IMG/VR virus record: IMGVR_UViG_3300041964_000083
Location: 64,001-128,000 of that record
Length of the DNA: 64,000 bases
DNA from: a virus
Reading direction: 5' to 3' (one strand)
In this document: in pieces, positions 21,270-47,512 of the stretch
Layout: each line of letters starts with the position of its first letter
How positions within the stretch are numbered: position 1 is the stretch's first letter
Translations under genes and position numbers: made by a program
Notes under the pieces: generated by a model
Seen by the model: only the letters and a program-made list of their open reading frames with translations
Told to the model about the DNA's origin: nothing
Database searches by the model: none

Positions 21270-22043
21270 TTACCGACTAGCGAGCGCTTCCGCTTTATCC
21301 TTCTTGCTAATTTTCAAGAATCTAGGTGCAGTTTCAGATGGCATATTGAGTAGCGTGGAGAATTCAAATAAATCGTTGTCAGGCAAGAATTTCGTTGTCA
21401 TTTGGATGAATGCAGGTTGACCTTGGGCTTCTCTATCAAGTTTGGGGTTGAATCGGTACGGTTTGATGATTGGTCTATCCCAGCTGATGGGAACATGAGA
21501 AGCTTTCAAAGTTTTTAGTTTATCAGCAGGTGGCAACTCTTTAATGCGCGATCGCCTATCATCACTAAAATTCCGCAGCACCGTAACAACCGGATACTTG
21601 CAGACAGGGATATGCTGCCACAGTCCGCAGAGTCGAAATTCAAAATCCTGCAACTCTTTAGTAATGCTATCTTCTCGCGGTTTGTTGCCTTCAAACCCCA
21701 GTAAATTGAATGTTAGTTGGTGGGGAACATCGCGTCCGGGTAAGTGAATGACGCGAGGGTAAACGACAAGTCGCTGTTTCTTGCCTGTTCGTGCGATCGC
21801 GTACTTCAATGCCCGGAATGTCTGACGATTGATAGCATCCCCACCAAGCCGATATATGCTATCGCCTTGGTTTTCCATCACATAGCCAAGTCGATAGGAT
21901 TTATCACCAATTACAACAGACGCTTTACCTTCGTCTAGTTCAACATCAGCATAGAGTACACCAATGGCTTGAAATATCGAATCGGGTTGTGGGGTTTTGA
22001 GTAGCTGCGGCTTGGGTTTGGGAACGGGTTTGGTGATTACCAT
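21270..22043 (-). CDS. Hypothetical protein
   Basis: 257-aa ORF ending before a terminator. Confidence 0.6.
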   Translation of the reverse strand: MVITKPVPKPKPQLLKTPQPDSIFQAIGVLYADVELDEGKASVVIGDKSYRLGYVMENQGDSIYRLGGDAINRQTFRALKYAIARTGKKQRLVVYPRVIHLPGRDVPHQLTFNLLGFEGNKPREDSITKELQDFEFRLCGLWQHIPVCKYPVVTVLRNFSDDRRSRIKELPPADKLKTLKASHVPISWDRPIIKPYRFNPKLDREAQGQPAFIQMTTKFLPDNDLFEFSTLLNMPSETAPRFLKISKKDKAEALASR

Positions 22044-22086
22044 CAGTATTTTTTCAAATTCCTGTTACATATGATATGCGATCGCG

Positions 22087-22581
22087 TTACTTTTCTGACG
22101 GTAATTTAATGTGCCCCAACTTAGTCAATTCACTCAAGACTTCACTCAACTGAGCTGCATAATCCGTTTCGAGAGCACGGAGTTGTTGTTCAAACTCCAC
22201 TTGTAACTGACGTTTTGCGTACTCATGCCGAGTTTCTAGTAATTTAATAGCTATTTGGCGCTCGGAAACAATGCGTTTTCTTAATTCCAAAAGACTCTGG
22301 ATTTGAATGCTCCATCCGGAAGTTGGTCGGCGTAACTCAACGCTACGGTTTTCTTGTCTGTTTACAACTATTTCCCAACAGGGAAAATTTAAAACGTAGT
22401 CTATCAAGTGTCTTTTGCACCCCAAAGAATACAGGTTAGCCGATAACAAATCGTCAGTTAATGTGTAATCACCTTCATCAGGAAAGTTATATTCCGACTG
22501 AAAGAATTGATTCGTTGGTTTGTATTTTAGAAGCAGCATATTTTTGTCTGTTTTTTGAAGATTCAATCGCCGCTTGCTCAA
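22087..22581 (-). CDS. Hypothetical protein (true start uncertain)
   Basis: ORF with coiled-coil C-terminus. Confidence 0.5.
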   Translation of the reverse strand: MSKRRLNLQKTDKNMLLLKYKPTNQFFQSEYNFPDEGDYTLTDDLLSANLYSLGCKRHLIDYVLNFPCWEIVVNRQENRSVELRRPTSGWSIQIQSLLELRKRIVSERQIAIKLLETRHEYAKRQLQVEFEQQLRALETDYAAQLSEVLSELTKLGHIKLPSEK

Positions 22582-22756
22582 ACTCAGCCAAAGTACATCG
22601 ATACACTTCCAAAGCCAACCGTGTCTCCGTGGGCGTTAATGTTGGCACAAAGCGACCTGTTTCCCAATTGCTGATAGTTGTGTGACTTTTGCCGAGCGTA
22701 GCCGCAACCTGTTCTCGACGTAACCCAGTTTTTTCCCGTAACTCACGTAAGTCCAA
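22487..22756 (-). CDS. XRE-family HTH regulator
   Basis: LRELREKTGLRREQVAATLGKSHTTISNWETG. Confidence 0.85.
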   Translation of the reverse strand: MDLRELREKTGLRREQVAATLGKSHTTISNWETGRFVPTLTPTETRLALEVYRCTLAEFEQAAIESSKNRQKYAASKIQTNESILSVGI

Positions 22757-22897
22757 TGTACTAACAGTCTCTAATTTGTATTGTTTTCTTGTTCAGTATA
22801 CAATATTTACAGAAAATTAAAAGCGATCGCGTTTCTCGACTGGACATCTGGAATTACGCGATCGCCTTACCCCACACACATGAAGGGCTAACAGCAT

Positions 22898-23614
22898 ATG
22901 CTAACAGTCAATGAGCGCAATGGTTTACTTGTTGTTGATTCTCGATTGATCGCCAAGCGGCTAGGGATTCAGCACAAGAACTTCTTAGGAACTATCGACA
23001 AATATTCAGCCAAAATGGCTGAAAGCCTCATTGTTAAAGCACCCGCGTTTGAAACGCGCCTGGTTAAGCGCCAACAAGGTGGTAGTTTTGAAGACCGATG
23101 GGCGTGGCTAACAGAACCACAAGCTAACTTCTTGATGACGTTATCGCGAAATACCGATGAAGTTGTTCAATGTAAACTTGAGTTGGTTGAAGCGTTTGAA
23201 AAAGCTAAGAATAAACTGCGATCGCGCACAGATGTTTCTCAAGCCTCCCTTGTAGGTCATTGGGCAGAACGTCAGCGCCTGTTTATCCAGCGCACGACTA
23301 TCCCTAGCGGTTGGTTCTGTATTTTCCAAGAGCTGGCACAGTTAATGTGGCAATTAGAAAATTTGGGGTATGTTATCCCTGACTATAGTCCTGTGGATAA
23401 CTCGCGGATAATCCCGGATATCTCAATTGGGCGAATGTTCTGTAGTAATATGCGGTCAAAAGGGTATGCGGTGGGTGCAAAAACCCAGAAGTACCCGCAC
23501 TGGTATCCGGGCTGGAAGTTGCCAGTCAAAGCCAATATCTATCCCAATGCTTGGTTAGAGGAGTTCCGAGCTTGGTTTGATAACCAATGGAAACCGAATA
23601 ATTTGTTACGGTAA
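22898..23614 (+). CDS. Rha-family N-terminal domain fused to BstA-like C-terminal domain (C-terminus shorter than paralogue)
   Basis: VVDSRLIAKRLGIQHKNFL...LTEPQANFLMTLSRNT (Rha); IPSGWFCIFQE...IIPDISIG...YPHWYP...IYPNAWLEEFRAWF. Confidence 0.7.
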   Translation: MLTVNERNGLLVVDSRLIAKRLGIQHKNFLGTIDKYSAKMAESLIVKAPAFETRLVKRQQGGSFEDRWAWLTEPQANFLMTLSRNTDEVVQCKLELVEAFEKAKNKLRSRTDVSQASLVGHWAERQRLFIQRTTIPSGWFCIFQELAQLMWQLENLGYVIPDYSPVDNSRIIPDISIGRMFCSNMRSKGYAVGAKTQKYPHWYPGWKLPVKANIYPNAWLEEFRAWFDNQWKPNNLLR

Positions 23615-23621
23615 ACCGAAT

Positions 23622-25541
23622 CTAAAGGTCGTCTATCCAGTCAGCAGACTCTGGCGCTTTTACGAGCTGGATGTAGAATGCTGCTACAGAAAACATGGTG
23701 GCATAGAACAAGTCATCTATGTTGTTTTGCCCTCGACTCCACCGACCTGTAGCGGAATCATAACTAGGTCCTGTGAAGTGGACAAGGGGCGATCGCTCAC
23801 TTGGGTTACCAAACCATTGCTCCCACTCTGGAGGGAGACGGTACAAAGGAAGGTCATCAAACCCAGGTTTTAAGAATCCCACCAATACTTGTTTGAGAAA
23901 CATCTCGTTGCGTATTGCCCAACATGGGTATTCAATCCCTCCATCAAATACCGTTGTCTCTTTCACAGCATCTTTAAGTCCTGGCTTTTGGTCTGCCATC
24001 TCAAGGCAAGTGGTGCGGCATAGTTCCGATGCATCAGCACGGTCTGGTTCGTTATCAATAATTCCGTAGGTTACGTTATATTCCCTGAGCTTATCGGGTA
24101 TCGCGTTGCGCTGTACGTCTCCACCAAATAAGATCACTCGCGTACTTTGCTCCATGATTTCAGATATAGACAAACGGCTGTAAAGAGGTGGGTAGTAAAA
24201 GCCTGTAATAACTAACCAATCCTCGCCACGTCCTTGGTCTACTCCAGCTACTACAACATCCGGGCGAATCATTGGACGAGGAGCCGCGATCGCACTCCTC
24301 AGCATATCCAACGTAATATTTCCAAGCTCAGATTCAGATGGATGTCCTAAACGCTGCTGCTGCCAATCTCGATTGTTATAAGTGTCTATTCCTTCCCGAA
24401 TAATCTCAGCCGCTAAGTTATATTCGGTTAGGCGTAGTAGTGGGCTAAGGTTAATCCCTACCTTCCATCGTCGCTTAGGAATACCTTCTGGCAATTCATC
24501 TAAAAACTGACGTAATGGTTTTCCAGTCTTGCGACATTGAAACCAAGCGTTTTGACGTTTCTTGTCTGCTATAGGCTGCCCACATTCAGAACACGCAAAC
24601 CACGCCGTATTTACTGCATCCCCTTTATTTTCGCAATGCCATTCAACTGGACGACCAATCTCAGATAGATAGGATATCTTCTCTTCCCCTACCGAATCAG
24701 TTCGTTTTATTGGTTTGAGTAAACATCCCTTAGGGTCAAGCGCGATCGTTGTGCCGCAGTTATCGCAAGAGCAGTGCGGGTAGAAGTAGTGGTCTGCACT
24801 CTCAATAGATAGCTCAATACCATTTCCTGCTCCAGGTGTTCCTAGTTCTCGAATTGGTTGTGATGGTAAGCGTGATGCATCAAGACGGCGAACTAAAGGG
24901 TCGCCCGCACCCATTGGATACTGGCTACGCTCTTCTTGAAATAAGATGTCGCGACTAGTTCCTACAGCAATACCACCCGCTGCTGCACCGCCTTCATTCT
25001 TTGCCTTGGCGCTAGTGCTGACATAAGTAAACTGTGCTGACACACTCCCCAATTGGTAGAGCGTATTGTTTCGCACTCCTTCACTAGAACGCCCAACTTT
25101 AATATTTCGAGATGCTAACCATTGGCGAATAACTGGACGAAAGTTACTGGGTACTTGTAAATCCAAAGTCCGCTCTTGATCATAAGACCAGAGTGTATTG
25201 AGTCGTCCTTCGGTAAGACAAAAACAAACCAGTAACGTGTGGAGTAGCGTTTTCCCAACTTGGGCACAACCCGATGCAAGTGTAATTTTCACCCGGAAAT
25301 CGCCAATCATTTCGGCATACTCTTCGTGCCACGGGTAAAGCGTTAGGCGATCGCCCCTTTCGTTTACGCCCCATTTCTTCACTGCCGCAACAAACGGTTT
25401 ACCACCCAATATGTAGCACTGCTCGATAAAGCGATCGCGTGCCATAGGGTCATAAGGTAAGACCTGATTCTTAGATTTCCCTGCCTCCGCCATCATCTTC
25501 TTGTTGGCGTGTGTCAGCTGGGAGATTGGTTGTATCTGCAT
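23622..25541 (-). CDS. terL: Terminase large subunit (GpA-like)
   Basis: Walker A GCAQVGKT, CxxC zinc-finger pairs, AGVDQG nuclease motif; directly downstream of TerS. Confidence 0.85.
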   Translation of the reverse strand: MQIQPISQLTHANKKMMAEAGKSKNQVLPYDPMARDRFIEQCYILGGKPFVAAVKKWGVNERGDRLTLYPWHEEYAEMIGDFRVKITLASGCAQVGKTLLHTLLVCFCLTEGRLNTLWSYDQERTLDLQVPSNFRPVIRQWLASRNIKVGRSSEGVRNNTLYQLGSVSAQFTYVSTSAKAKNEGGAAAGGIAVGTSRDILFQEERSQYPMGAGDPLVRRLDASRLPSQPIRELGTPGAGNGIELSIESADHYFYPHCSCDNCGTTIALDPKGCLLKPIKRTDSVGEEKISYLSEIGRPVEWHCENKGDAVNTAWFACSECGQPIADKKRQNAWFQCRKTGKPLRQFLDELPEGIPKRRWKVGINLSPLLRLTEYNLAAEIIREGIDTYNNRDWQQQRLGHPSESELGNITLDMLRSAIAAPRPMIRPDVVVAGVDQGRGEDWLVITGFYYPPLYSRLSISEIMEQSTRVILFGGDVQRNAIPDKLREYNVTYGIIDNEPDRADASELCRTTCLEMADQKPGLKDAVKETTVFDGGIEYPCWAIRNEMFLKQVLVGFLKPGFDDLPLYRLPPEWEQWFGNPSERSPLVHFTGPSYDSATGRWSRGQNNIDDLFYATMFSVAAFYIQLVKAPESADWIDDL

Positions 25542-26061
25542 CGAGTGGTGTTACTTCCCATGCGCCAGAGTCACTTTGTCGTAGCACTAAACCGTATTTG
25601 CGAAGCGTCGCGATCGCACGGTTGAAATCGTTATCCAATCCCAAGTGCTGCATTACAAGTTTGAGTGCAGTTTTCTTGTCATGTAACTTGGCATAAGTCT
25701 TGGTACTTTTGCCAGCTTCAATCTGTCCTACTTCCTGGATTGCCGCGATCGCCCAATCAGGTAAGACATCACTATTCTTGAGTGAGAAATTACTATTCGA
25801 GAATGAAGTTACATCGGTAATTCTGGAGAAGGCAATATAAGATAATTCTTCTAAGACGCGATCGGCTGTTATCTGGGTTCTACGCGATCGCTCCGCCTGG
25901 AGTCTAGCTATCTCAAATTGTATGTCATGTTTTGACATATTTAGATCTGCGACTTGGCGTGCAGATCTCGCGCTATACCCAGCCCGTATAGCCGCCTGAG
26001 TCCCATTCAGGTCAACAATGTACTCTATACAGAACTGGCGTTGTTTGTTTGTTAAAGACAA
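25471..26061 (-). CDS. terS: Terminase small subunit
   Basis: LTNKQRQFCIEYIVDLNGTQAAIRAGYS...ITADRVLEELSYIAF. Confidence 0.95.
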   Translation of the reverse strand: MSLTNKQRQFCIEYIVDLNGTQAAIRAGYSARSARQVADLNMSKHDIQFEIARLQAERSRRTQITADRVLEELSYIAFSRITDVTSFSNSNFSLKNSDVLPDWAIAAIQEVGQIEAGKSTKTYAKLHDKKTALKLVMQHLGLDNDFNRAIATLRKYGLVLRQSDSGAWEVTPLDADTTNLPADTRQQEDDGGGREI

Positions 26062-26231
26062 TTCTCGTGGGAGATAGACTATTACTAGTTTACGTTATGC
26101 GATCGCACACCAAAGACATATGGAAAAAAATAGAAGTTAGCTTCTATAGCAAACGATCGCGCACACAAACATTGATGATAACGGGGAAGCGATCGCACAC
26201 ATCTGCCAAAATTACTTAACCAAGCGTTGAA

Positions 26232-26471
26232 ATGCTGTTATCGGAACTATGCGATCGCGCAAAAATCAAATATTCAACCGCGATCGCAGTAGTACTCGGC
26301 TGCAAGAAGCTCAAACCGTCACTGGCAATATTCCACACCTGCCAGCCAAAACCTGTCCAACTTAAGAAATTCGGCACAGGTTTCCCCAACACCCCATACC
26401 GTTGCCCTTGCTGTGATGTGTTGGTTAGAAACCCAAATGAGTTGAATTACGATGTTTTAGTGAGCAAATGA
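26232..26471 (+). CDS. Small Cys-containing hypothetical protein
   Basis: HTC...CPCC; stop overlaps palindrome. Confidence 0.5.
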   Translation: MLLSELCDRAKIKYSTAIAVVLGCKKLKPSLAIFHTCQPKPVQLKKFGTGFPNTPYRCPCCDVLVRNPNELNYDVLVSK

Positions 26472-26487
26472 CAACGCATCGTTGTCA
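26469..26487. repeat. 19-bp palindrome copy 3 (TGACAACGCATCGTTGTCA)
   Basis: Overlaps TGA stop; followed by terminator 26491-26518. Confidence 0.9.
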
Positions 26488-26625
26488 AACAAAAACACCC
26501 CGTCACAACGACGGGGTGTGTCGCCCAAGACAAGCGACGATAAGAAAATTGTTCCAGAATTCTATTCTACTGCCTTGTAAACGTGAACGTTATTTCTTAA
26601 CTAATGCGATCGCGTCTCCCTTTGT

Positions 26626-27015
26626 TCAATTTTTGAACCCGTACACGTAATATTCGTAACCGTTAGATAAGTTGCATCCACCCATAACGCAAATAAGTTT
26701 CAACTTGGGGTTATCAAAATACGCTCTCAAAAACGCTTCTGCGTATCGGGCTGTTCTTGGTGATGCGCCTGAATCCTTTGCTTTCTCGCTTGCCGCTTCT
26801 GCTTTCGTCCTATCCCATTGCCAGATGCGATCGCTATACTCCCATGTCAAACCATCTTCTTGATGACCATAAATAACTTGAGGCTTTTTCCAGATTTTTT
26901 GCTGATAACTTGGGTACTGAAGGCGTTGATCTGGGTCTAATGTTGGAATAATTGCTGGTAGCTGATATTCTTTGGCAATGCCATGCGCCATTTCAAACCA
27001 TTCTTCGTCCATCAT
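26626..27015 (-). CDS. Hypothetical phage protein
   Basis: 129-aa ORF. Confidence 0.6.
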   Translation of the reverse strand: MMDEEWFEMAHGIAKEYQLPAIIPTLDPDQRLQYPSYQQKIWKKPQVIYGHQEDGLTWEYSDRIWQWDRTKAEAASEKAKDSGASPRTARYAEAFLRAYFDNPKLKLICVMGGCNLSNGYEYYVYGFKN

Positions 27016-27084
27016 CGCTTTATCCTTGCAATTTGTTGAGTAGACGCAAGTCCTAATAATGTACGGTGCGATCGCGTCTCCCCT

Positions 27085-28242
27085 TTAGTCTCTAATCTGT
27101 ACGGGCATATCAGGTAAGTCATCTTCAACTCACCTAGGGGTACGAGTATGACCGGAGTATCAGCGGTATTAATCAACATCTGAATCTCTGTAGTCGCAAG
27201 CGTCTTTAAGCCATCAATTAAGTATTTAACATTGAAGGCTATAAGTAAGTCATCACCTGATACCTGAATAGGCATTGACTCTTGTCCACTACCAACATCT
27301 TGAGCATCAACCGATAAAGTAAGCTGCTGGTTAATGCTGTCAATGCTGAACTTAACCGTATTGTTTTTCTGGTCAGCTAGTACGCCGATGCGCTCCACTG
27401 CACCAAGTAACTGCCGTCGATCAATTGTGACTTGCCGCTGGAACTGAACTGGAATCAACTGCCGATAGGCTGGGTATGTTCCTTCTAGTGTGCGACTCGT
27501 TAAGCGCTGCTCTCCCTCCTGAAAGACAAGCTGACCTTGCTCAAAATGAAGCATAACCGTATCTACTGGTTGCTTGGTGGCAATCATCCGTTCAAGCTCT
27601 TTTAGCGCTCTAGTGGGCACGGTGACTTGAAATGGCTCAACACTTTCTTGATTGTCTTCGCTCTGATTTTTTGTTTCTACAACGGCAAGGCGATGCCCAT
27701 CTGTGGCAGCAAACTCTAAGCCATCTTGCTGAACAGTTAAGTGAACACCAGTTAGTACCTGTTTGGTTTCATCGGGACTAGTGGCAAACAGCGTGCTACC
27801 CAACCCTTGCTTTAGCGCTTCAACGGGGTAGGCTAATTGCCGTCTCTGATTGCACCTGTGGAAGTGCTGGGAATTCATCAGCACTCATCCCGCGCATTTG
27901 ATAGCGCCCAGATGCTGAAGTTAGCGTGACGATATGGCTACCTTCAGCATCGCCTTCTCCTGATTTCTCAGATAACGTGATTTCCCCTTCAGATAGACGA
28001 GAAACAATATCACTAAGTAGTTTTGCCGGAATGGTTAGTTTTCCGCTCGTTTCTACCGTAGCGGCAAAACTGGTCTGAATGCCAAGACTCAGATCAAATG
28101 CGGTAAGCGTCACCTTCTGTGCTTCGGCATCAGCCACGAGCAGCACATTACCCAATATTGGGTGGGTAGGACGAGAGGGAACCGCTCGACTTACTAGAGA
28201 GAGGTTTGTGTTGAGTTCGCTTTGGATGCAGGTTAGTTTCAT
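27085..28242 (-). pseudogene. dnaN: DNA polymerase III beta clamp, cyanobacterial type, with two frameshifts
   Basis: MKLTCIQSELNTNLSLVSRAVPSRPTHPIL...FAATDGHRL...; extra base in G-run 27825-27828; missing base near 27108 (alternative frame gives expected end MPVQIRD*). Confidence 0.9.
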
Positions 28243-28277
28243 GGTTTTGTCCAATGTTGGTTGTTGTGTGCGATCGC

Positions 28278-29459
28278 CTAATAACTGTCAGTGCCTAAAA
28301 TCTTAGATTTTGGTTTGGGTTTGTTTACCCGCCACTTTTTAAAGCTACGTTCGCTATACCATTGAGGAGGACTACCATTCCAAGAAGCAAATACTTTTTG
28401 GTTGTCGATATCAACCTCAATTATTTTGAGCGTGTAGAGCGCGCCGTATGAAATCTTGACCACACCCATCTGCTGACGACGCACTTCATAGACGATTTGC
28501 TCTGGCTTAAGTCGATTAATTGATGCCATGTTTATGCCTCATTAATGAAAGTTAGTTGCAAATAAATTATGTGCGATCGCGCTCCTCTTTATCTGGAAAA
28601 GTTGCCCAAACAGGAACTTCGCCTAAACAAATCCAAATAAACAAGTCTTCCCAGTACCCAGATTGAGCCTGAAGAGTTATTGATTCTGTTAACAAAGAAA
28701 GCGATCGTGCATTACGAAATGAGCAAGCGTGCGATCGCTTTACAACTTTAAAAGGTATATGTGCCGTACCCTTAAAATTGTTGTGTATAGAATCTGAATC
28801 CACAAAAACGCTCATTGGATGTACGTTTAATTGTTGTGCTGATTCATACATTTGCCGAGTGATGTCAAACAGCAGTACAACTTCATCACCAATCATAAAA
28901 CTGGCAAATGAAGATAAATCGTTACCGTCGTATAGATTGAAACTACAGTCTATTGCAGTTTCGTATTTGCGAGATTGAAAATATACCATGTGCGATCGCG
29001 TCCTGTTTAAAACAAATTTAACTGTCCTGGAACTTCTGCTAAACATCGCTCCACTTCATCAATCACAGCTTTAGCGAAGTCTCTGATAAGTGTGTCGTGA
29101 TAGTAGCCAAACTCTTCATCCGTAGGGCGACCCCACCAACCCGACTCGTGGATGATATCAACAGCAAGAATACCCCCATTGGGAATATCGAGGTAAATAC
29201 CCCATCCTCTGTACGGTTGGATTTCGTTCTCAGGATAGTCACACTCCTCACCCATATGAATAAAACCAAATTGGTCTACAAGCTGATCAATCCTGCCAGC
29301 TAATCCAGTCAAATGAGAGGCTCTTAGCTTGTTGGTGTCAATTTTGAAAACTTCAGGCAACTCTAACAAGACACCACCACAGTCTTCATGCTCCATCTCA
29401 CTTAAGTTTTCGAGGCTATCGATGATTTCGTCACAGCGGGAACAACGGTACTTAGTCAT
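28278..29459 (-). CDS. Three small hypothetical genes (28278-28529, 28567-~28989, 29007-29459)
   Basis: Co-directional ORFs separated by HIP1 junctions; the last has a CxxC...HxxC zinc-ribbon start. Confidence 0.55.
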
Positions 29460-29620
29460 GTGCGATCGCGTCCTCCAATCTTTTCGTAAATAAACTCTCT
29501 AACTGCATCCGCCATAGTGGTTTTGTTTTTTTGACACCACTCAGCAAATGCCTCTTTGTCGGATTTCTCCAAATGAACATGGATATCCGCAGGCTCTTTA
29601 TATCTCTTAGGTCGTGGCAT
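29456..29620 (-). CDS. Small RHH regulator, not in ORF track
   Basis: MPRPKRYKEPADIHVHLEKSDKEAFAEWCQKNKTTMADAVREFIYEKIGGRDRT; divergent from BstA-like gene. Confidence 0.7.
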   Translation of the reverse strand: MPRPKRYKEPADIHVHLEKSDKEAFAEWCQKNKTTMADAVREFIYEKIGGRDRT

Positions 29621-29752
29621 TTCTTTAATTCGGTCTATGGGTTATACTATATACCATAAACCAATAATTGCAAAGCAAAAGCGATCGCGCACCTCGGACT
29701 GGAAATCTGGTTACGCGATCGCCTAGCACTACCCAACTACTTAGGAGCACCA

Positions 29753-30657
29753 ATGGAAATCATACGTCGCGTTGACAACAACGTCGAGTTTTACACAGTA
29801 ACTGCTACCGGAAAATCTGGAATGAGTCAAAGTGGTTTATCAATTCTTTCTGGAGTTACCCGCCAAGCTATTATCAAAATCGAAAAGACCCTTGTAACCG
29901 AAGCACCATCTAAAACGCTGGAAAGGTTTGTGGGTAAGGATTTTACCCTTGTAACCGAAAATGCAATGATTGATGGTAAACCAACCGGAAACCTCAATGT
30001 TTACGCTTCGCCGTTTTGCGGAGCAGTGATTCGTCACTATGCATACAAAGGTAACGATACGGCACAATATAGCCTTGAACAGTTCTCTGATATGGGGATA
30101 GAGAAGTGGATTCAAGAGATTACTGGATGGACTAAACCCAATCAACCGTCTCAAGCATCAATGGTTGGGTACTGGGCAGAGCGGCAGCGGCTATTCATCC
30201 AGAAGACTACAATCCCTAGTGGGTGGTTCTGTGTCTTTGAGGAATTGGCTAAGTTGATGTGGCAGCTTGAGAACTTGGGTATGTTATCCCCGACTACAGT
30301 CCAGTAACCAACAAACGGATTATGCCCGATATATCGATTGGTAAAATATTCTGCAAATATATGCGGAAGAATGGCTACGCTGTTGACTCTACTGTTCGCA
30401 GCTACCCGCATTATTATCCCGGATGGGCGTTACCCGTAAACGCTAACATTTACCCCAATGCTTGGTTAGAAGTGTTTCGAGCTTGGTTTGATGAGCAGTG
30501 GAAGCCGCAACGGTTGGTTAAGTATTTAGGAAAGCGCGACCCCGATAGTATGCCTTCAATCTGCAAATTGTTAGGTTTACCTGAAGCGCCAGTGCAACTT
30601 GAACTACTTACTGTTAAAAATGGCGAGATTCTAGTACTCAAAGATTGCAACAGCTAA
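29753..30657 (+). pseudogene. BstA-like protein (KilA-N-like N-domain + BstA-like C-domain), one frameshift
   Basis: GMSQSGLSILSGV...FCGAVIRHYAY...GIEKWIQEITGW then IPSGWFCVFEE / MPDISIG...YPNAWLEVFRAWF; one G missing at 30277-30279 relative to paralogue at 22898. Confidence 0.7.
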
Positions 30658-30672
30658 CTCAATTATCTAGAC

Positions 30673-30691
30673 TGACAACGTTTCGTTGTCA
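30673..30691. repeat. 19-bp palindrome copy 4, extended to 29 bp (TAGAC...GTCTA)
   Basis: TAGAC-TGACAACGTTTCGTTGTCA-GTCTA. Confidence 0.9.
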
Positions 30692-30721
30692 GTCTACCAC
30701 TAGAACCAATACCCAAACCTT

Positions 30722-31275
30722 ATGTCAACCTACACAGAACTCCGACAAGAACTAGATCGCATTGAGAAGTATATTCAAGACGCGATCGCGCAATTAGTCA
30801 ACGCTAAAGAACCAAAGGACAAATTGCGAGAAGAATTAAATCGTGTGATGGGCGAACAAATCAGAGTGCGAGTTGAGCTATCCAGTTTGCTAGAGCGTGA
30901 AGCAAAGGAAATTGCTGCATCATCCGACCTTGACGATATTAAATTCTTGTACCGGGGGAGACGATATTCGGCAAGTGGTTGGTGGCACGTCTACTACGAG
31001 AAGTGCCAAGTCATCGAACGTAAGCCCAATTATCTCACTGTGGTGTCTCAAGATATGGATATCCCAGGCTTTTATAAAGGTGGAAAGTTTCGGGTTAAGC
31101 GTGATGAGCTTCAGTCTGAGGCAAAGCCTACCATAGCCGACATGGAGAATTCTTTTACATCGAACCCCTTAGCGACAGTTCACCCCTCCCCGGTAGTGCG
31201 GTCATTGGCTCAAACCTTACGGCTACTCCAGAGCAAGGCGCAATGGTGCTAGGTACACCCCATCAATTACGTTGA
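30722..31275 (+). CDS. Hypothetical protein, probable 1-nt frameshift near 31120
   Basis: Alternative frame GKAYHSRHGEFFYIEP...PHQLR* ends on the TGA of palindrome copy 5. Confidence 0.55.
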
Positions 31276-33296: not shown

Positions 33297-34262
33297 CTAA
33301 ATTAATCCTGAAACAATTTCCGACATCTCTCCCTGAGCATTCTTCCGATTGTCATCATAGATCAGTAAGGTGTCAGACTTACTATGGCGAGAGAGCTTCT
33401 GCACCCGCCTCACGTCTCCATTCGTCGCATCCAGTGCCGCTGTTAAGGTCGAGTGCCGGATGCGGTGAGGTGAGAATATCTTTTTAATACCAGCTTGAGT
33501 CGCAATTTCTCGAACAATCCGATACACACCATCACCCGTGAGAGGATGCCCGTAGTGGGCATTATTGAGTGCGATAAATAACGGGTCGCCTTCCTCCACC
33601 TCGCCTCGGCAATCCAACCATTCCTGAATTGCCACTACGGTTGTAGGTGGCAATTCAACCCGCTCCACCTGAGTCCCCCGACCTTTTCCTAAAATACTGA
33701 GCGTTCGTTTTCTCGCATCAAAATCCCCAACCTTTACCAGCGCCTCACTGCGCCGCAGAGCATTGGACCAGAATAATCGAAGCAGTGCATAATCTCGCTT
33801 CCCTTTCAACGTTGCGCGATCGCACACTTCAAGCATCGCCTTAAATTCATCAACGCTCACCCCAGAGGTATCCCGATACGTCCGGCATCGTTCACCCTTA
33901 ATTTCCTCAAGGGTAAATTTACATTTATCAAGTTTACGTGCATAAGCCGTCAACGACTTAATCGCTGCTAGCCGTCGATTAACCGTCGCCTCTTTCAACC
34001 CCTGCGCCAACAACTGAGCTTTATACTTCAGCACCACCTTAATCGCATCTGCCCGCGCCAACCCCAAAAACTGTCCAACAGCTTCTGGGGTTGGTTTGGT
34101 TTTAGTCAAGAACTCGAAGAAGTACCCCAAGTCTTTCTCATATGCACGACGGGTGTTACGCGATCGCTTATCAGCCAGCAAGTCACGAATTAAGTCATCA
34201 TCTTCAATGTGTTCAGCAAGCCAAGATGGTTGCTGAGTTGCGAGGTTACTCACGCTCAACAC
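33297..34262 (-). CDS. Tyrosine recombinase/integrase (XerC-like, plasmid resolvase type)
   Basis: RDYALLRL...LRRSE, GKG, PHRIRHS, SRHSK..TLLIY catalytic residues; SAM-like N-domain TRRAY..TVNRRLAAIKS. Confidence 0.92.
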   Translation of the reverse strand: MLSVSNLATQQPSWLAEHIEDDDLIRDLLADKRSRNTRRAYEKDLGYFFEFLTKTKPTPEAVGQFLGLARADAIKVVLKYKAQLLAQGLKEATVNRRLAAIKSLTAYARKLDKCKFTLEEIKGERCRTYRDTSGVSVDEFKAMLEVCDRATLKGKRDYALLRLFWSNALRRSEALVKVGDFDARKRTLSILGKGRGTQVERVELPPTTVVAIQEWLDCRGEVEEGDPLFIALNNAHYGHPLTGDGVYRIVREIATQAGIKKIFSPHRIRHSTLTAALDATNGDVRRVQKLSRHSKSDTLLIYDDNRKNAQGEMSEIVSGLI

Positions 34263-46531: not shown

Positions 46532-46615
46532 TGTAGCCTTCTAGGTAAACACTGTATGCGATCGCGTCTTGTCTGGAAAACTTACGCGATCGCACGTCCA
46601 CTAACCCACAAGCTA

Positions 46616-47512
46616 ATGGAGCAACTATCCATCATGACACAAATTGAGCAAGTTGTTAAACAAATTCAATCAGAGTTCCGCGTAAACCCCAATGGGCAAG
46701 TATTTACCAGTATTCGCGGTGCAGCAAGGTTAGCCGATATTGATGAATCGTCAATTAGAACAGCTCTCCATAGTGCGGGACAAAAACCATCGCGTTTAGC
46801 TGAATTCCTTATCCAACAAGGATTTGAAAGTGCGGAGCTAATTTCGTGGGTAACTACAAGGATACCCGATATTGCACTTGCGTTGATTCTTGAGTACTAC
46901 GCTTACGAGTGCCAAGAACGCTATCGCTCAGAGCAAGCCAAGCTTTGTTGTCGCGCATTTAATTCCGTAGGTATCAGGGATTGGGTTAAAAAATCAATAG
47001 GGTGGGAGGTACAACTAGCAAGCGGGATAACCAAAACCGAAAGCCGTATAGAAGAAATACTGGCTCAAAACCAGCAAATGATGCAGCAAAGTCAGCAAAT
47101 GATGATGGCAATCGCGATGATGTGTCAGCAGCAAGGAATCCAAATGGAATCACTTGCATCACAGGTTTCTTCTGTTGATACCCGACTAACGCGCATCGAA
47201 TCAGACCGCGATGATGCAATTGCAGAACTCGATGAAGCCGAACCCCCATCTGTTGAAGCAGAAGACCTAACCACCCGTGCCAAACTTAATCGCTTGGTTC
47301 GCGATTATAGTGCGGCTACCGCTATTCCGTTTAGCGAAGTGTGGAAGCGAGTATATCGAGAATTCCGCGATCGATATCATGTTGATCTCAAGCGGCGGTC
47401 TAAAAATATCCAAGAAAGTGGCGGCAAAAAGCTAAGTTCTTTAGATGTTTGCGAACACCTCGGCATGATAGAACAGCTATACGCTGTAGCATTTGCGCTA
47501 TTAAAAGCTTAA
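46616..47512 (+). CDS. Antirepressor-like protein: BstA/KilA-N-like N-domain, coiled coil, ORF6C-like C-domain
   Basis: TSIRGAARLADID...ALILEYYAYE...GIRDWVKKSIGW; VWKRVYREFRDRYHVDL. Confidence 0.65.
   Translation: MEQLSIMTQIEQVVKQIQSEFRVNPNGQVFTSIRGAARLADIDESSIRTALHSAGQKPSRLAEFLIQQGFESAELISWVTTRIPDIALALILEYYAYECQERYRSEQAKLCCRAFNSVGIRDWVKKSIGWEVQLASGITKTESRIEEILAQNQQMMQQSQQMMMAIAMMCQQQGIQMESLASQVSSVDTRLTRIESDRDDAIAELDEAEPPSVEAEDLTTRAKLNRLVRDYSAATAIPFSEVWKRVYREFRDRYHVDLKRRSKNIQESGGKKLSSLDVCEHLGMIEQLYAVAFALLKA

What the first reader, a model, noticed from the sequence alone, without database searches (positions are those of the whole stretch)
22823..30657. Two BstA-like proteins with shuffled N-domains behind a conserved leader hairpin (candidate anti-phage module with cis element)
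Seen: 22898 and 29753 share a near-identical C-domain (IPSGWFCxFxE..PDISIG..YPHxYP..IYPNAWLExFRAWF) but have unrelated N-domains (Rha versus KilA-N-like). Both are preceded by GCGATCGCG..GACTGGAxATCTGG..TTACGCGATCGC (22823-22865, 29681-29722) and a divergent HTH/RHH gene. Established: Salmonella prophage BTP1 BstA is an abortive-infection protein with a KilA-N-like N-domain, neutralised in cis by the aba element at its 5' end. The match to BstA is from motif recall. Inference: cyanobacterial BstA-type defence genes whose leader may be an aba analogue or an attenuator.
Basis: partly seen in the sequence, partly recalled or inferred. Interest (0 to 1): 0.7.

Follow-up and report, generated by a model that had tools for sequence, protein, structure and literature searches.

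The report
Cyanophage BstA-like genes with hairpin leader
A 154-kb virus of cyanobacteria carries two genes of the known BstA phage-defence family (one shortened, one broken by a one-base shift) whose DNA-binding front halves have been swapped, and both sit behind the same small conserved DNA hairpin, which is real and under selection but does not look like the family's known self-immunity element.

Summary
Gene A (22898-23614) and gene B (29753-30307 plus 30322-30657) share a C-terminal domain, have unrelated N-domains, and follow homologous HIP1-flanked hairpins next to divergent Xre and RHH-like genes.

The BstA recall is confirmed:
- PADLOC BstA and phrog_6287 profiles match at E 1e-14 to 1e-23.
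- tblastn hits BstA of Salmonella phage BTP1 itself (33% identity, 1e-10).

- The DNA is a near-complete 154-kb cyanophage record with a tyrosine recombinase, not a cyanobacterial chromosome.
- Gene A lacks about 44 conserved C-terminal residues.
- Gene B has a one-base loss in a G-run. This may be an assembly error, because DnaN nearby is split the same way.
- N-domain swapping is family-wide: Bro-N, Rha, KilA-N and AntA fronts occur among 118 representatives.

The hairpin loop (GACTGGA-N-ATCTGG) is 13/14 identical between A and B, although synonymous sites of the two C-domains are saturated. It exists only here and in one related phage.

It lacks the signature I found for aba in BTP1 and ten other KilA-N-type BstA loci: direct repeats 56-57 bp apart straddling the start codon. 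It is also not a plus-strand attenuator. I read it as a shared cis-control element of the BstA transcription unit. An aba-like role remains possible at about 15-20%.

Earlier notes of this scan concern BstA genes on other DNA, not this leader.

The parts
22487..22756 (-). Xre-type HTH regulator, divergent from gene A; first gene of a leftward gene run
   Evidence: Pfam HTH_31 1.3e-11, HTH_3 6.9e-10. About 91% identical to the Xre gene that sits in the same position next to the BstA-like gene of another phage record (L007 2223-2453; identity by eye).
22779..22805 (.). Operator-like inverted repeat (TATTGTTTTCT / AGTATACAATA) overlapping -10-like hexamers of both divergent promoters (inferred)
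   Evidence: The same repeat is conserved in L007 2480-2506. The promoter reading is by eye; the strict scan found none.
22819..22868 (+). Leader hairpin A: AAAA + GCGATCGCG ... GACTGGACATCTGG ... CGCGATCGC; ends 32 nt before the ATG
22898..23614 (+). Gene A, 238 aa: Rha N-domain + BstA C-domain, lacking about 44 C-terminal residues found in relatives; its end abuts the 3' end of the large terminase gene (23622-25541, minus strand)
   Evidence: Relative P0002 is 97% identical over the C-domain region searched (residues 112-238) but 282 aa long. The missing tail YxKxKDPxxLPxxxxLGLP is conserved across the family.
29456..29620 (-). Small RHH/repressor-like gene, divergent from gene B; heads a leftward gene run through DnaN to the terminase genes
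   Evidence: DUF6290 4.5e-4 (below cut-off), phrog_876 7e-4. ORF order.
29638..29663 (.). Imperfect 26-bp palindrome, candidate operator specific to locus B; a leftward sigma70-like promoter lies at 29674-29646
29677..29725 (+). Leader hairpin B: AAAA + GCGATCGCG ... GACTGGAAATCTGG ... CGCGATCGC; ends 30 nt before the ATG
29753..30657 (+). Gene B: full-length BstA-like gene (KilA-N-like N-domain of 'type N2' + BstA C-domain), split by loss of one base in a G-run at about 30274-30277. Frame 1 is 29753-30307; frame 2 is open from 30280 to 30657.
   Evidence: The pieces match BstA profile positions 28-185 and 192-269 of 292. Piece 1 is 76% identical to intact P0005. Frame 2 is 100% identical over 125 aa to the C-terminus of P0009.
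30668..30696 (.). Perfect 13-bp-arm palindrome after gene B (bidirectional terminator-like; member of a dispersed palindrome family noted by the scan)
46557..46594 (+). Related HIP1 hairpin (GCGATCGCG TCTTGTCTGGAAAACTTA CGCGATCGC) before the third gene; lacks the 14-nt loop motif
46616..47512 (+). Third family member: BstA-N-like ('type N4') domain + anti-repressor-type C-domain. The same N4 domain is joined to a BstA C-domain in relative P0003.
   Evidence: phrog_6287 2.7e-8 (res 3-130) and phrog_373 2.2e-9 (res 144-266). PADLOC BstA 4.8e-8. 56% identity to the P0003 N-domain, ending at the linker.
33342..33854 (-). Tyrosine recombinase (context: the phage is probably temperate or plasmid-like)
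   Evidence: PF00589 3.3e-19, over the cut-off.

Best explanation
These are two copies of a small mobile cassette of a temperate-type cyanophage. Each has a short repressor-like gene (Xre or RHH) reading left and a BstA-family gene reading right. The BstA-family protein joins a swappable N-terminal DNA-binding head (Rha in A; KilA-N-like in B) to a conserved C-terminal domain. By homology with BTP1 BstA, I infer that this C-terminal domain carries the inhibitory (effector) activity; Owen et al. did not assign the activity to either domain. BTP1 BstA blocks replication of competing phages (abortive infection or exclusion). The head is exchanged by recombination between two constant flanks, the leader and the QPSQAS linker, and probably sets which DNA is recognised. 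The shared HIP1-flanked hairpin belongs to the BstA transcription unit. It lies downstream of locus-specific operator-like palindromes and about 31 nt before the start codon. It is most likely a cis-control element: a 5'-proximal stem-loop of the mRNA, or a DNA site, read sequence-specifically through its GACTGGA-N-ATCTGG loop. Shown here: family membership, domain architecture, head swapping, and leader conservation beyond neutral expectation. Inferred: the defence function, the regulators' role, and what binds the loop. In this record gene A is truncated and gene B is frameshifted, so activity may be reduced or lost, unless the frameshift is an assembly error.
For: - BstA homology. Intact relatives of gene B's type align to positions 26-270 of the 292-position BstA profile at E about 1e-32 to 1e-40.
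- Phage origin and recombinase.
- Head swapping: close relatives carry the same C-domain behind four different heads. Gene B's C-terminal 125 aa are 100% identical to a Rha-headed protein from another contig.
- The same pattern holds family-wide: Bro-N in 31, Rha in 29, KilA-N in 22 and AntA in 7 of 118 representatives.
- The Xre + leader + BstA cassette recurs in a different phage (G001/L007) with a third head type, while its flanking genes look unrelated by eye.
- Leader under constraint: the loop is 13/14 identical between A and B, although 4-fold sites of the C-domains are 30% identical. The geometry is constant: 60-70 nt from the regulator start, a 42-43 nt hairpin, then 30-32 nt to the ATG.
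- Each locus has its own palindrome between the regulator and the hairpin.
Against: - There are only three leader copies, two of them in one genome, and no covariation to show an RNA or DNA structure.
- HIP1 hairpins are common in this phage, and eight others are simply intercistronic, so part of the resemblance is generic.
- No sigma70-type promoter passed the strict scan upstream of either BstA gene.
- Both genes look damaged.
- No experiment links Rha-headed or cyanophage BstA-like proteins to defence.
Confidence: 0.5

Rival explanations
1. The hairpin is the cyanophage counterpart of aba. It would be a DNA 'password' carried next to the gene that neutralises the phage's own BstA-like proteins during its lytic replication. 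One password would serve both paralogues because it is read by the shared C-domain.
For: - It sits at the 5' end of the locus, as aba does (PMC8585504).
- It is conserved beyond neutral expectation.
- It tracks the close C-domain clade and not the head (Rha, N2, N3) or the regulator (Xre, RHH).
- It is unique to these loci in every collection searched.
Against: - Its architecture differs from aba. BTP1 and ten other KilA-N-type loci have direct repeats 56-57 bp apart straddling the ATG. Here there is an inverted repeat lying wholly upstream (-75 to -31), and A and L007 have no straddling repeat.
- aba elements are cognate and differ between BstA variants, whereas here two proteins that are 73% identical share one loop.
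- Which BstA domain reads aba is unknown.
Confidence: 0.17
2. The proteins are ordinary phage regulators of the Rha / anti-repressor class rather than defence proteins. The 'BstA C-domain' would be just one more C-terminal module of that combinatorial family, used for the phage's own lysis-lysogeny or replication control.
For: - The C-domain is joined to Bro-N, Rha, KilA-N, AntA and ORF6N heads, the classic anti-repressor set.
- The third gene couples the same head type to an anti-repressor C-domain.
- The genes lie at operon switch points beside repressor-like genes.
- The C-domain model is confident (pLDDT above 93) but has no solved structural relative to suggest an activity.
Against: The only tested members of the C-domain family (BstA of BTP1, and the E. 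coli and Klebsiella homologues) are abortive-infection proteins (PMC8585504). Full-length relatives align end to end with the BstA profile.
Confidence: 0.18
3. The hairpin is a minus-strand intrinsic terminator or insulator. It would stop antisense transcription, for example read-through from the leftward terminase operon across gene A, before it reaches the regulator's promoter. The loop similarity would be leftover common ancestry.
For: All three copies have an invariant AAAA on the 5' side, which gives CGCGATCGC-UUUU on the minus strand. The minus-strand fold is stronger, at -24 and -26 kcal/mol. The terminase gene ends 8 nt from gene A and points at it.
Against: - Terminator loops are not normally conserved at 13/14 when synonymous sites are saturated.
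- Loci B and L007 have no convergent gene directly downstream.
- The strict terminator scan did not call it, because the loop is longer than 8 nt.
Confidence: 0.1
4. The loci are decaying relics, and the leader has no function of its own. It would be a recombination boundary (HIP1 sites) carried along with the cassette.
For: - Gene A is truncated and gene B is frameshifted.
- Another relative, P0011, appears to be cut about ten codons downstream of that point (by eye).
- N-domain exchange needs constant flanks.
Against: - The frame after the shift is 100% identical to an intact relative, so there has been no decay.
- DnaN in the same window is split at a homopolymer too, which points to sequencing error.
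- The loop is conserved while the flanking non-coding DNA between A and B is not.
Confidence: 0.05

Closest known systems
BstA of Salmonella prophage BTP1 and its tested homologues BstA-Ec and BstA-Kp (Owen et al. 2021, Cell Host Microbe; PMC8585504)
   Same: - The C-terminal domain is homologous: 33% identity to BTP1 BstA over 92% of the domain, E 1e-10, plus PADLOC and PHROG BstA profile matches.
- Gene B and its intact relatives align over nearly the whole BstA profile, including the KilA-N-like head.
- The genes are phage-borne and sit beside repressor-like genes.
- A short conserved non-coding element lies at the 5' end of the locus.
   Different: - The host range differs: a cyanophage rather than a proteobacterial prophage.
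- The gene is divergent from a small Xre or RHH gene, rather than downstream of cI in the same operon.
- Gene A has a Rha head.
- The 5' element is a HIP1-flanked hairpin lying wholly upstream, not a 63-bp segment with terminal direct repeats across the start codon.
- Two paralogues share one element, whereas BstA variants have distinct cognate aba elements.
- There are no functional data.
Combinatorial KilA-N / Bro-N / Rha / AntA 'anti-repressor' proteins of DNA viruses (Iyer, Koonin and Aravind 2002, Genome Biology; cited from my own knowledge, not read here)
   Same: The same set of N-terminal DNA-binding heads is freely recombined with different C-terminal modules. Here that is seen within one phage (genes A, B and 46616-47512) and across 118 family representatives.
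   Different: The C-terminal partner here is specifically the BstA C-domain. The exchange is bounded by a conserved leader on one side and the QPSQAS linker on the other.
PeSL (promoter-early stem-loop) cassettes of T4-type phages (Arbiol et al. 2010, Genome Biol Evol; cited from my own knowledge, not read here)
   Same: Short conserved stem-loop-containing regulatory units recur in front of accessory genes. They can serve as constant flanks for modular gene exchange.
   Different: - The stems here are built from the host-type HIP1 palindrome.
- No promoter follows the stem-loop.
- Eight of the ten copies that precede a plus-strand gene are intercistronic.
- The two BstA copies lie in divergent control regions and share a specific loop.

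Membership tests
BstA protein family (PADLOC PDLC02356 / phrog_6287) | Significant match to the BstA C-terminal domain (about positions 153-270 of the profile) | tested here: met
   Gene A 1.5e-18 (153-261). Gene B piece 1 extends to position 185 and piece 2 covers 192-269 (1e-13). phrog_6287 1.3e-23 and 6.8e-18. tblastn to BTP1 BstA 1e-10.
BstA protein family (PADLOC PDLC02356 / phrog_6287) | KilA-N-like N-terminal domain (BTP1 residues 32-147) | tested here: inconclusive
   Gene B: met at profile level (positions 28-185, 1.3e-14; intact relatives 26-270), although Pfam KilA-N itself does not hit. Gene A: not met, as its head is Rha (PF09669). Owen et al. note homologues that match only the C-terminal region.
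BstA protein family (PADLOC PDLC02356 / phrog_6287) | Intact full-length open reading frame | tested here: not met
   Gene A stops about 44 aa before relatives, losing a family-conserved tail. Gene B is split by a one-base loss in a G-run. That loss may be an assembly error, since DnaN is also split at a CCCC run.
BstA protein family (PADLOC PDLC02356 / phrog_6287) | Abortive infection / inhibition of phage DNA replication | not testable with these tools
   Needs expression and phage challenge.
BstA locus architecture (Owen et al. 2021) | Prophage-borne, downstream of and co-oriented with the prophage repressor | tested here: not met
   The genes are phage-borne and a tyrosine recombinase is present. 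However, both genes are divergent from small Xre or RHH-like genes and not downstream of a cI-type repressor.
aba (anti-BstA) self-immunity element | About 63-bp element spanning the start codon (-29 to +34 in BTP1) | tested here: not met
   The hairpins lie at -75 to -33 (A) and -72 to -31 (B), wholly upstream. aba coordinates are from PMC8585504.
aba (anti-BstA) self-immunity element | Terminal direct repeats required for function. I find a 56-57 bp spacing in BTP1 and ten other KilA-N-type loci. | tested here: not met
   Gene A's best run at any spacing of 40-74 is 5 nt. L007 has 8 nt at spacing 66. Gene B has TGGAAATC at spacing 54; an 8-mer is reached in 23 of 300 shuffles. BTP1, L061, L062/65, L068, L070, L071, L074, L075, L076 and L082 peak at 56-57.
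aba (anti-BstA) self-immunity element | Cognate specificity: each BstA variant has its own element | tested here: inconclusive
   Three loci whose C-domains are 73-91% identical share one loop. More distant cyanophage relatives (L047, L050) have hairpins without it. This fits clade-level specificity, but n = 3.
aba (anti-BstA) self-immunity element | Suppresses BstA when present on replicating DNA | not testable with these tools
   Needs genetics.
Intrinsic attenuator / terminator in the leader (plus strand) | GC-rich stem followed by a U-run on the transcribed strand | tested here: not met
   The stem is followed by CUUACCCC or CUAGCACU on the plus strand. No terminator was called. The T-run is on the minus strand.
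Known RNA families (Rfam 15) | Covariance-model match | tested here: not met
   No match at E <= 1 in 22000-31000, both strands.

The most novel reading that the evidence does not exclude
The HIP1-flanked hairpin with the GACTGGA-N-ATCTGG loop is a second, structurally different kind of self-recognition ('password') element for BstA-type proteins. It would be read by the conserved C-domain rather than by the swappable head. One element could then protect a phage that carries several head variants, and heads could be exchanged without losing self-immunity.
Probability: 0.15. Interest if true: 0.75.

Novelty: new variant of a known kind. Interest (0 to 1): 0.45.

Why it matters
BstA is one of the few defence systems with a DNA-encoded self-immunity element, and how that element is read is not known. 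These cyanophage loci extend the family to viruses of cyanobacteria. I found no paper on this in the held library.

The loci show very recent, precise exchange of the DNA-binding head. One case has 100% identical C-terminal halves behind different heads.

They also show a short non-coding element that stays constant while the head and the neighbouring regulator change. That makes one question directly testable: which half of a BstA-type protein recognises its cis element?

The side observation may be more useful to people working on BstA than the cyanophage genes themselves. Proteobacterial BstA loci share direct repeats of variable sequence at a fixed 56-57 bp spacing across the start codon. 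This gives a simple rule for finding aba elements.

Tried and rejected
1. More leader copies. Pattern scans of IMG/VR, JGI metagenomes and 185,579 species genomes gave only the own record, one related phage, and chance hits in high-GC DNA.

The leaders of P0002-P0011 therefore could not be read.

3. Structure.
- The AF2 model of intact relative P0002 has a confident C-domain (pLDDT above 93).
- Foldseek against PDB, VIA-align wide (best Z 4.0) and BFVD gave nothing significant.
- An HMM search against PDB sequences found none.
- The head was poorly modelled because the alignment mixes head types. No conclusion about the fold is drawn.

4. RNA structure support. There is no covariation (3 sequences) and no Rfam match.

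5. Embedded 22-bp palindrome, reported by earlier scan notes for KilA-N/BstA genes. None is present in these three genes.

6. aba-type straddling repeats. Absent.

7. Programmed frameshift in gene B. A -1 slip on G_GGU would restore the frame, but there is no canonical slippery heptamer or evident stimulator. I judge it unlikely (about 10%).

8. The genome search 'relatives' is not available for virus records. PF26567, listed for the relatives, is not in the local Pfam copy.

Full report
**What is there**

The window is bases 64001-128000 of a 153,952-bp IMG/VR virus record (CheckV 98% complete, 43% G+C). The cyanobacterial HIP1 octamer GCGATCGC occurs 247 times in the record and 104 times in the window, against 0.6 expected. 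So this is a cyanophage, not a cyanobacterial chromosome. It encodes a tyrosine recombinase about 3 kb from gene B (window 33342-33854, PF00589 3.3e-19). A temperate or plasmid-like lifestyle is therefore plausible.

**The observation**

Gene A (22898-23614, 238 aa) and gene B (29753-30307 plus 30322-30657) are as described.
- Their C-terminal parts are 81% identical over 48 aa and 67% over 67 aa. BLASTP finds nothing between the N-terminal parts.
- 'Near-identical' is too strong. Over 113 aligned codons, amino-acid identity is 73% and DNA identity 69%. Only 10 of 33 four-fold synonymous sites agree, which means saturation.
- Both genes are preceded by GCGATCGCG...CGCGATCGC hairpins (22823-22865 and 29681-29722). 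These fold at about -20 kcal/mol, better than shuffles. They share the loop GACTGGA[C/A]ATCTGG.
- The divergent genes are an Xre-type HTH (HTH_31 1.3e-11) and a weakly RHH/repressor-like 54-aa protein.

**BstA homology**

- The PADLOC BstA profile matches gene A at 1.5e-18 (profile positions 153-261 of 292). It matches the two pieces of gene B at positions 28-185 and 192-269.
- PHROG 6287, annotated as the BstA replication inhibitor, gives 1.3e-23, 3.9e-12 and 6.8e-18.
- A tblastn of gene A's C-domain against GenBank phages hits the BstA gene of Salmonella phage BTP1 itself (32.8% identity over 92% of the query, E 1e-10). It also hits homologues in Escherichia, Klebsiella, Proteus and Pseudomonas phages and one Synechococcus phage.

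Gene A's head is Pfam Rha (1.4e-10). Gene B is therefore a full-length BstA-type gene, and gene A is a Rha-headed protein with a BstA C-domain.

**State of the two genes**

Close relatives from metagenomes show what intact versions look like.
- P0002 is 97% identical to gene A over the C-domain region searched but is 282 aa long. Gene A stops 44 residues early, exactly where it meets the 3' end of the convergent large terminase gene.
- The lost segment includes the motif YxKxKDPxxLPxxxxLGLP, which is conserved across the family. It lies in confidently modelled helices.
- Gene B has lost one base of a G-run (TTGGGTATG here; TTGGGGTATG in gene A).
- The frame after the shift, open from 30280, is 100% identical over 125 aa to the C-terminus of P0009. 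The first frame is 76% identical to intact P0005. There has been no decay after the break.
- DnaN in the same window is split by an extra C in a CCCC run. I therefore rate an assembly error as at least as likely as a real mutation. A -1 slip on G_GGU would also restore the frame, but nothing else suggests programmed frameshifting.

**Head swapping**

Among the ten closest relatives, the same C-domain follows four different heads:
- Rha;
- gene B's type (N2);
- a related type N3;
- a type N4.

Types N2-N4 all align with the KilA-N-like part of the BstA profile.
- N4 is also the head of a third gene in the window (46616-47512). Its C-terminal half is anti-repressor-like (phrog_373).
- P0009 joins a Rha head to a C-domain identical to gene B's, with the junction at the QPSQAS linker. 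Exchange is therefore recent and precise.

This is not peculiar to cyanophages.
- An exhaustive search found 193 cluster representatives of the C-domain.
- Among 118 of them, Pfam finds Bro-N in 31, Rha in 29, KilA-N in 22, AntA in 7 and ORF6N in 4.
- Owen et al. already noted homologues matching only the C-terminal or only the N-terminal region.
- The shuffling is thus a known property of this protein class. Rha + BstA-C is a common but untested architecture.

**The leader**

Points that lower its significance:
- HIP1-HIP1 hairpins are frequent in this phage: there are 14, and 10 of them lie 14-45 nt before a plus-strand start codon.
- Eight of those ten are simply intercistronic. They sit 6-27 nt after the stop of the preceding gene and are followed by an A/C-rich spacer.

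Points that raise it:
- The two BstA leaders are the only ones in divergent control regions, and the only ones sharing a loop.
- That loop is 13/14 identical, although neutral sites of the adjacent coding regions are saturated and the flanking non-coding DNA does not align.
- A third copy lies in another phage record (G001, IMGVR_UViG_3300034027_000008). It sits before a BstA-like gene with an N3 head and beside an Xre gene that is about 91% identical by eye. The genes that flank that cassette look unrelated by eye.
- The geometry is constant: 60-70 nt from the regulator's start, a 42-43 nt hairpin, then 30-32 nt to the ATG.
- The motif was found nowhere else in IMG/VR, JGI metagenomes or 185,579 species genomes. 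It has no further copy in the record.
- It follows the close C-domain clade, not the head (Rha, N2, N3) and not the regulator (Xre, RHH).
- Each locus has its own operator-like palindrome between the regulator and the hairpin. That palindrome is conserved between A and G001 and different in B.
- More distant cyanophage relatives (L047, L050; 41% and 40% C-domain identity) also have a HIP1-like hairpin ending about 30 nt before the ATG, but without this loop.

**Is it aba?**

Owen et al. define aba as 63 bp from -29 to +34. It has terminal CCCGCC direct repeats that are essential, it acts as DNA, and it is cognate to each BstA variant.

I looked for that architecture in 37 family loci from IMG/VR plus BTP1.
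- In BTP1 and ten KilA-N-type loci, the strongest direct repeat around the start codon has a spacing of 56 or 57 bp.
- The first copy lies at -15 to -54 and the second copy lies inside the first codons.
- The repeat sequence differs from locus to locus. Examples are CCCGCCA, AGCACCAC, TTTGGGTACCACCC, AACAAAAATATCGCGGG and AAGCCCGCCGCCCC.
- Gene A and the G001 locus have nothing of the kind. Gene B has only TGGAAATC twice at spacing 54, which is at chance level.

The cyanophage element is an inverted repeat lying wholly upstream. It therefore fails the two structural features of aba that can be tested here.

It is also not a plus-strand attenuator, because no U-run follows it. The invariant AAAA on its 5' side gives a U-run on the minus strand, so a role as an antisense terminator is a rival reading. 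There is no Rfam family match and no covariation.

**Mechanism proposed**

I read the loci as mobile two-gene cassettes: a small repressor plus a BstA-type gene, carried by a temperate-type cyanophage.
- By homology, the protein would interfere with replication of competing phages.
- The swappable head would set DNA or target recognition.
- The hairpin would be a cis-control element of the BstA transcription unit, read through its loop by an unknown factor. That factor could be the BstA C-domain itself.
- I give this reading 0.5.
- The rivals are: an aba-like role 0.17; ordinary anti-repressor-type regulators 0.18; an antisense terminator 0.10; functionless relics 0.05.

**Structure**

An AlphaFold2 model of P0002 built on the 118-sequence alignment has a confident C-domain (pLDDT above 93 for residues about 120-260). 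It has no significant match in PDB by Foldseek or VIA-align (best Z 4.0) or in BFVD, and no PDB sequence relative. This neither supports nor contradicts the BstA assignment, which rests on sequence.

**Novelty and score**

- Family membership is established and the shuffling is a known pattern. On those counts these are new members in a new host group.
- The constant hairpin leader in place of the aba-type repeats is a variant not described in the BstA paper, nor in the papers I could find.
- It rests on three copies, and the two genes in this record look impaired.
- I rate the finding as a new variant of a known kind, with interest 0.45.

**Limits**

- Earlier notes of this scan describe BstA-type genes with an embedded palindrome on other DNA, and describe this record as a 154-kb cyanophage. 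None concerns this leader.

Noticed in passing
L083 (BTP1) 640-860; L061, L062, L065, L068, L070, L071, L074, L075, L076, L082 around their start codons: In KilA-N-type BstA loci the best direct repeat around the start codon has a fixed spacing of 56-57 bp. The first copy is at -15 to -54 and the second lies in the first codons. The repeat sequence differs between loci and is 7-17 nt long. This generalises the CCCGCC terminal repeats of BTP1 aba and fits 'cognate' aba elements. The main text of Owen et al. 2021 mentions only the BTP1 repeat.
   Followed up: partly
window 46558, 47846, 62386, 62802, 63980; genome 131842, 132768, 133607 (L044): Eight HIP1-HIP1 hairpins sit 6-27 nt after a plus-strand stop codon and 14-45 nt before the next ATG. 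Each is followed by an A/C-rich, G-poor spacer (A 43%, C 26%) and an SD-like GGAG/AAGGA. They precede small ORFan genes and a 1209-aa DarB-like antirestriction gene. They look like phage-wide intercistronic punctuation built from the host-type palindrome. Three of them (62386, 62802, 63980) share ...GAGACTGGCGATCGCATGGGGCAACCCAAC.
   Followed up: partly
window 27012-28254 (-): The DNA polymerase III beta clamp (DnaN) is split into 144-aa and 290-aa ORFs by an extra C in a CCCC run near 27835. Together with the G-run loss in gene B, this suggests homopolymer errors in the assembly.
   Followed up: partly
window 29753-30160 (N-domain of gene B); P0003-P0005: The KilA-N-like heads of types N2-N4 also match PADLOC model PDLC01151 (up to 1e-33). 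That model is described as an HTH protein whose C-terminal domain is often fused to Cas6. The head type therefore seems shared with a CRISPR-associated protein family.
   Followed up: no
model of P0002, residues about 120-260: The BstA C-domain is modelled with pLDDT above 93. It finds no solved structural relative (best VIA-align Z 4.0; Foldseek E above 0.1), so its fold is uncharacterised by these tools.
   Followed up: partly
window 23037-23065: A short palindrome (CGCGTTT-G-AAACGCG) lies inside the Rha-domain coding region of gene A. It is probably chance.
   Followed up: no
P0011 (181 aa, from a 98-kb contig): Another relative of gene B's type appears to be cut off in the same inter-subdomain stretch (after DYSPID). 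That is about ten codons downstream of gene B's break point, so disruption of these genes may be recurrent.
   Followed up: no
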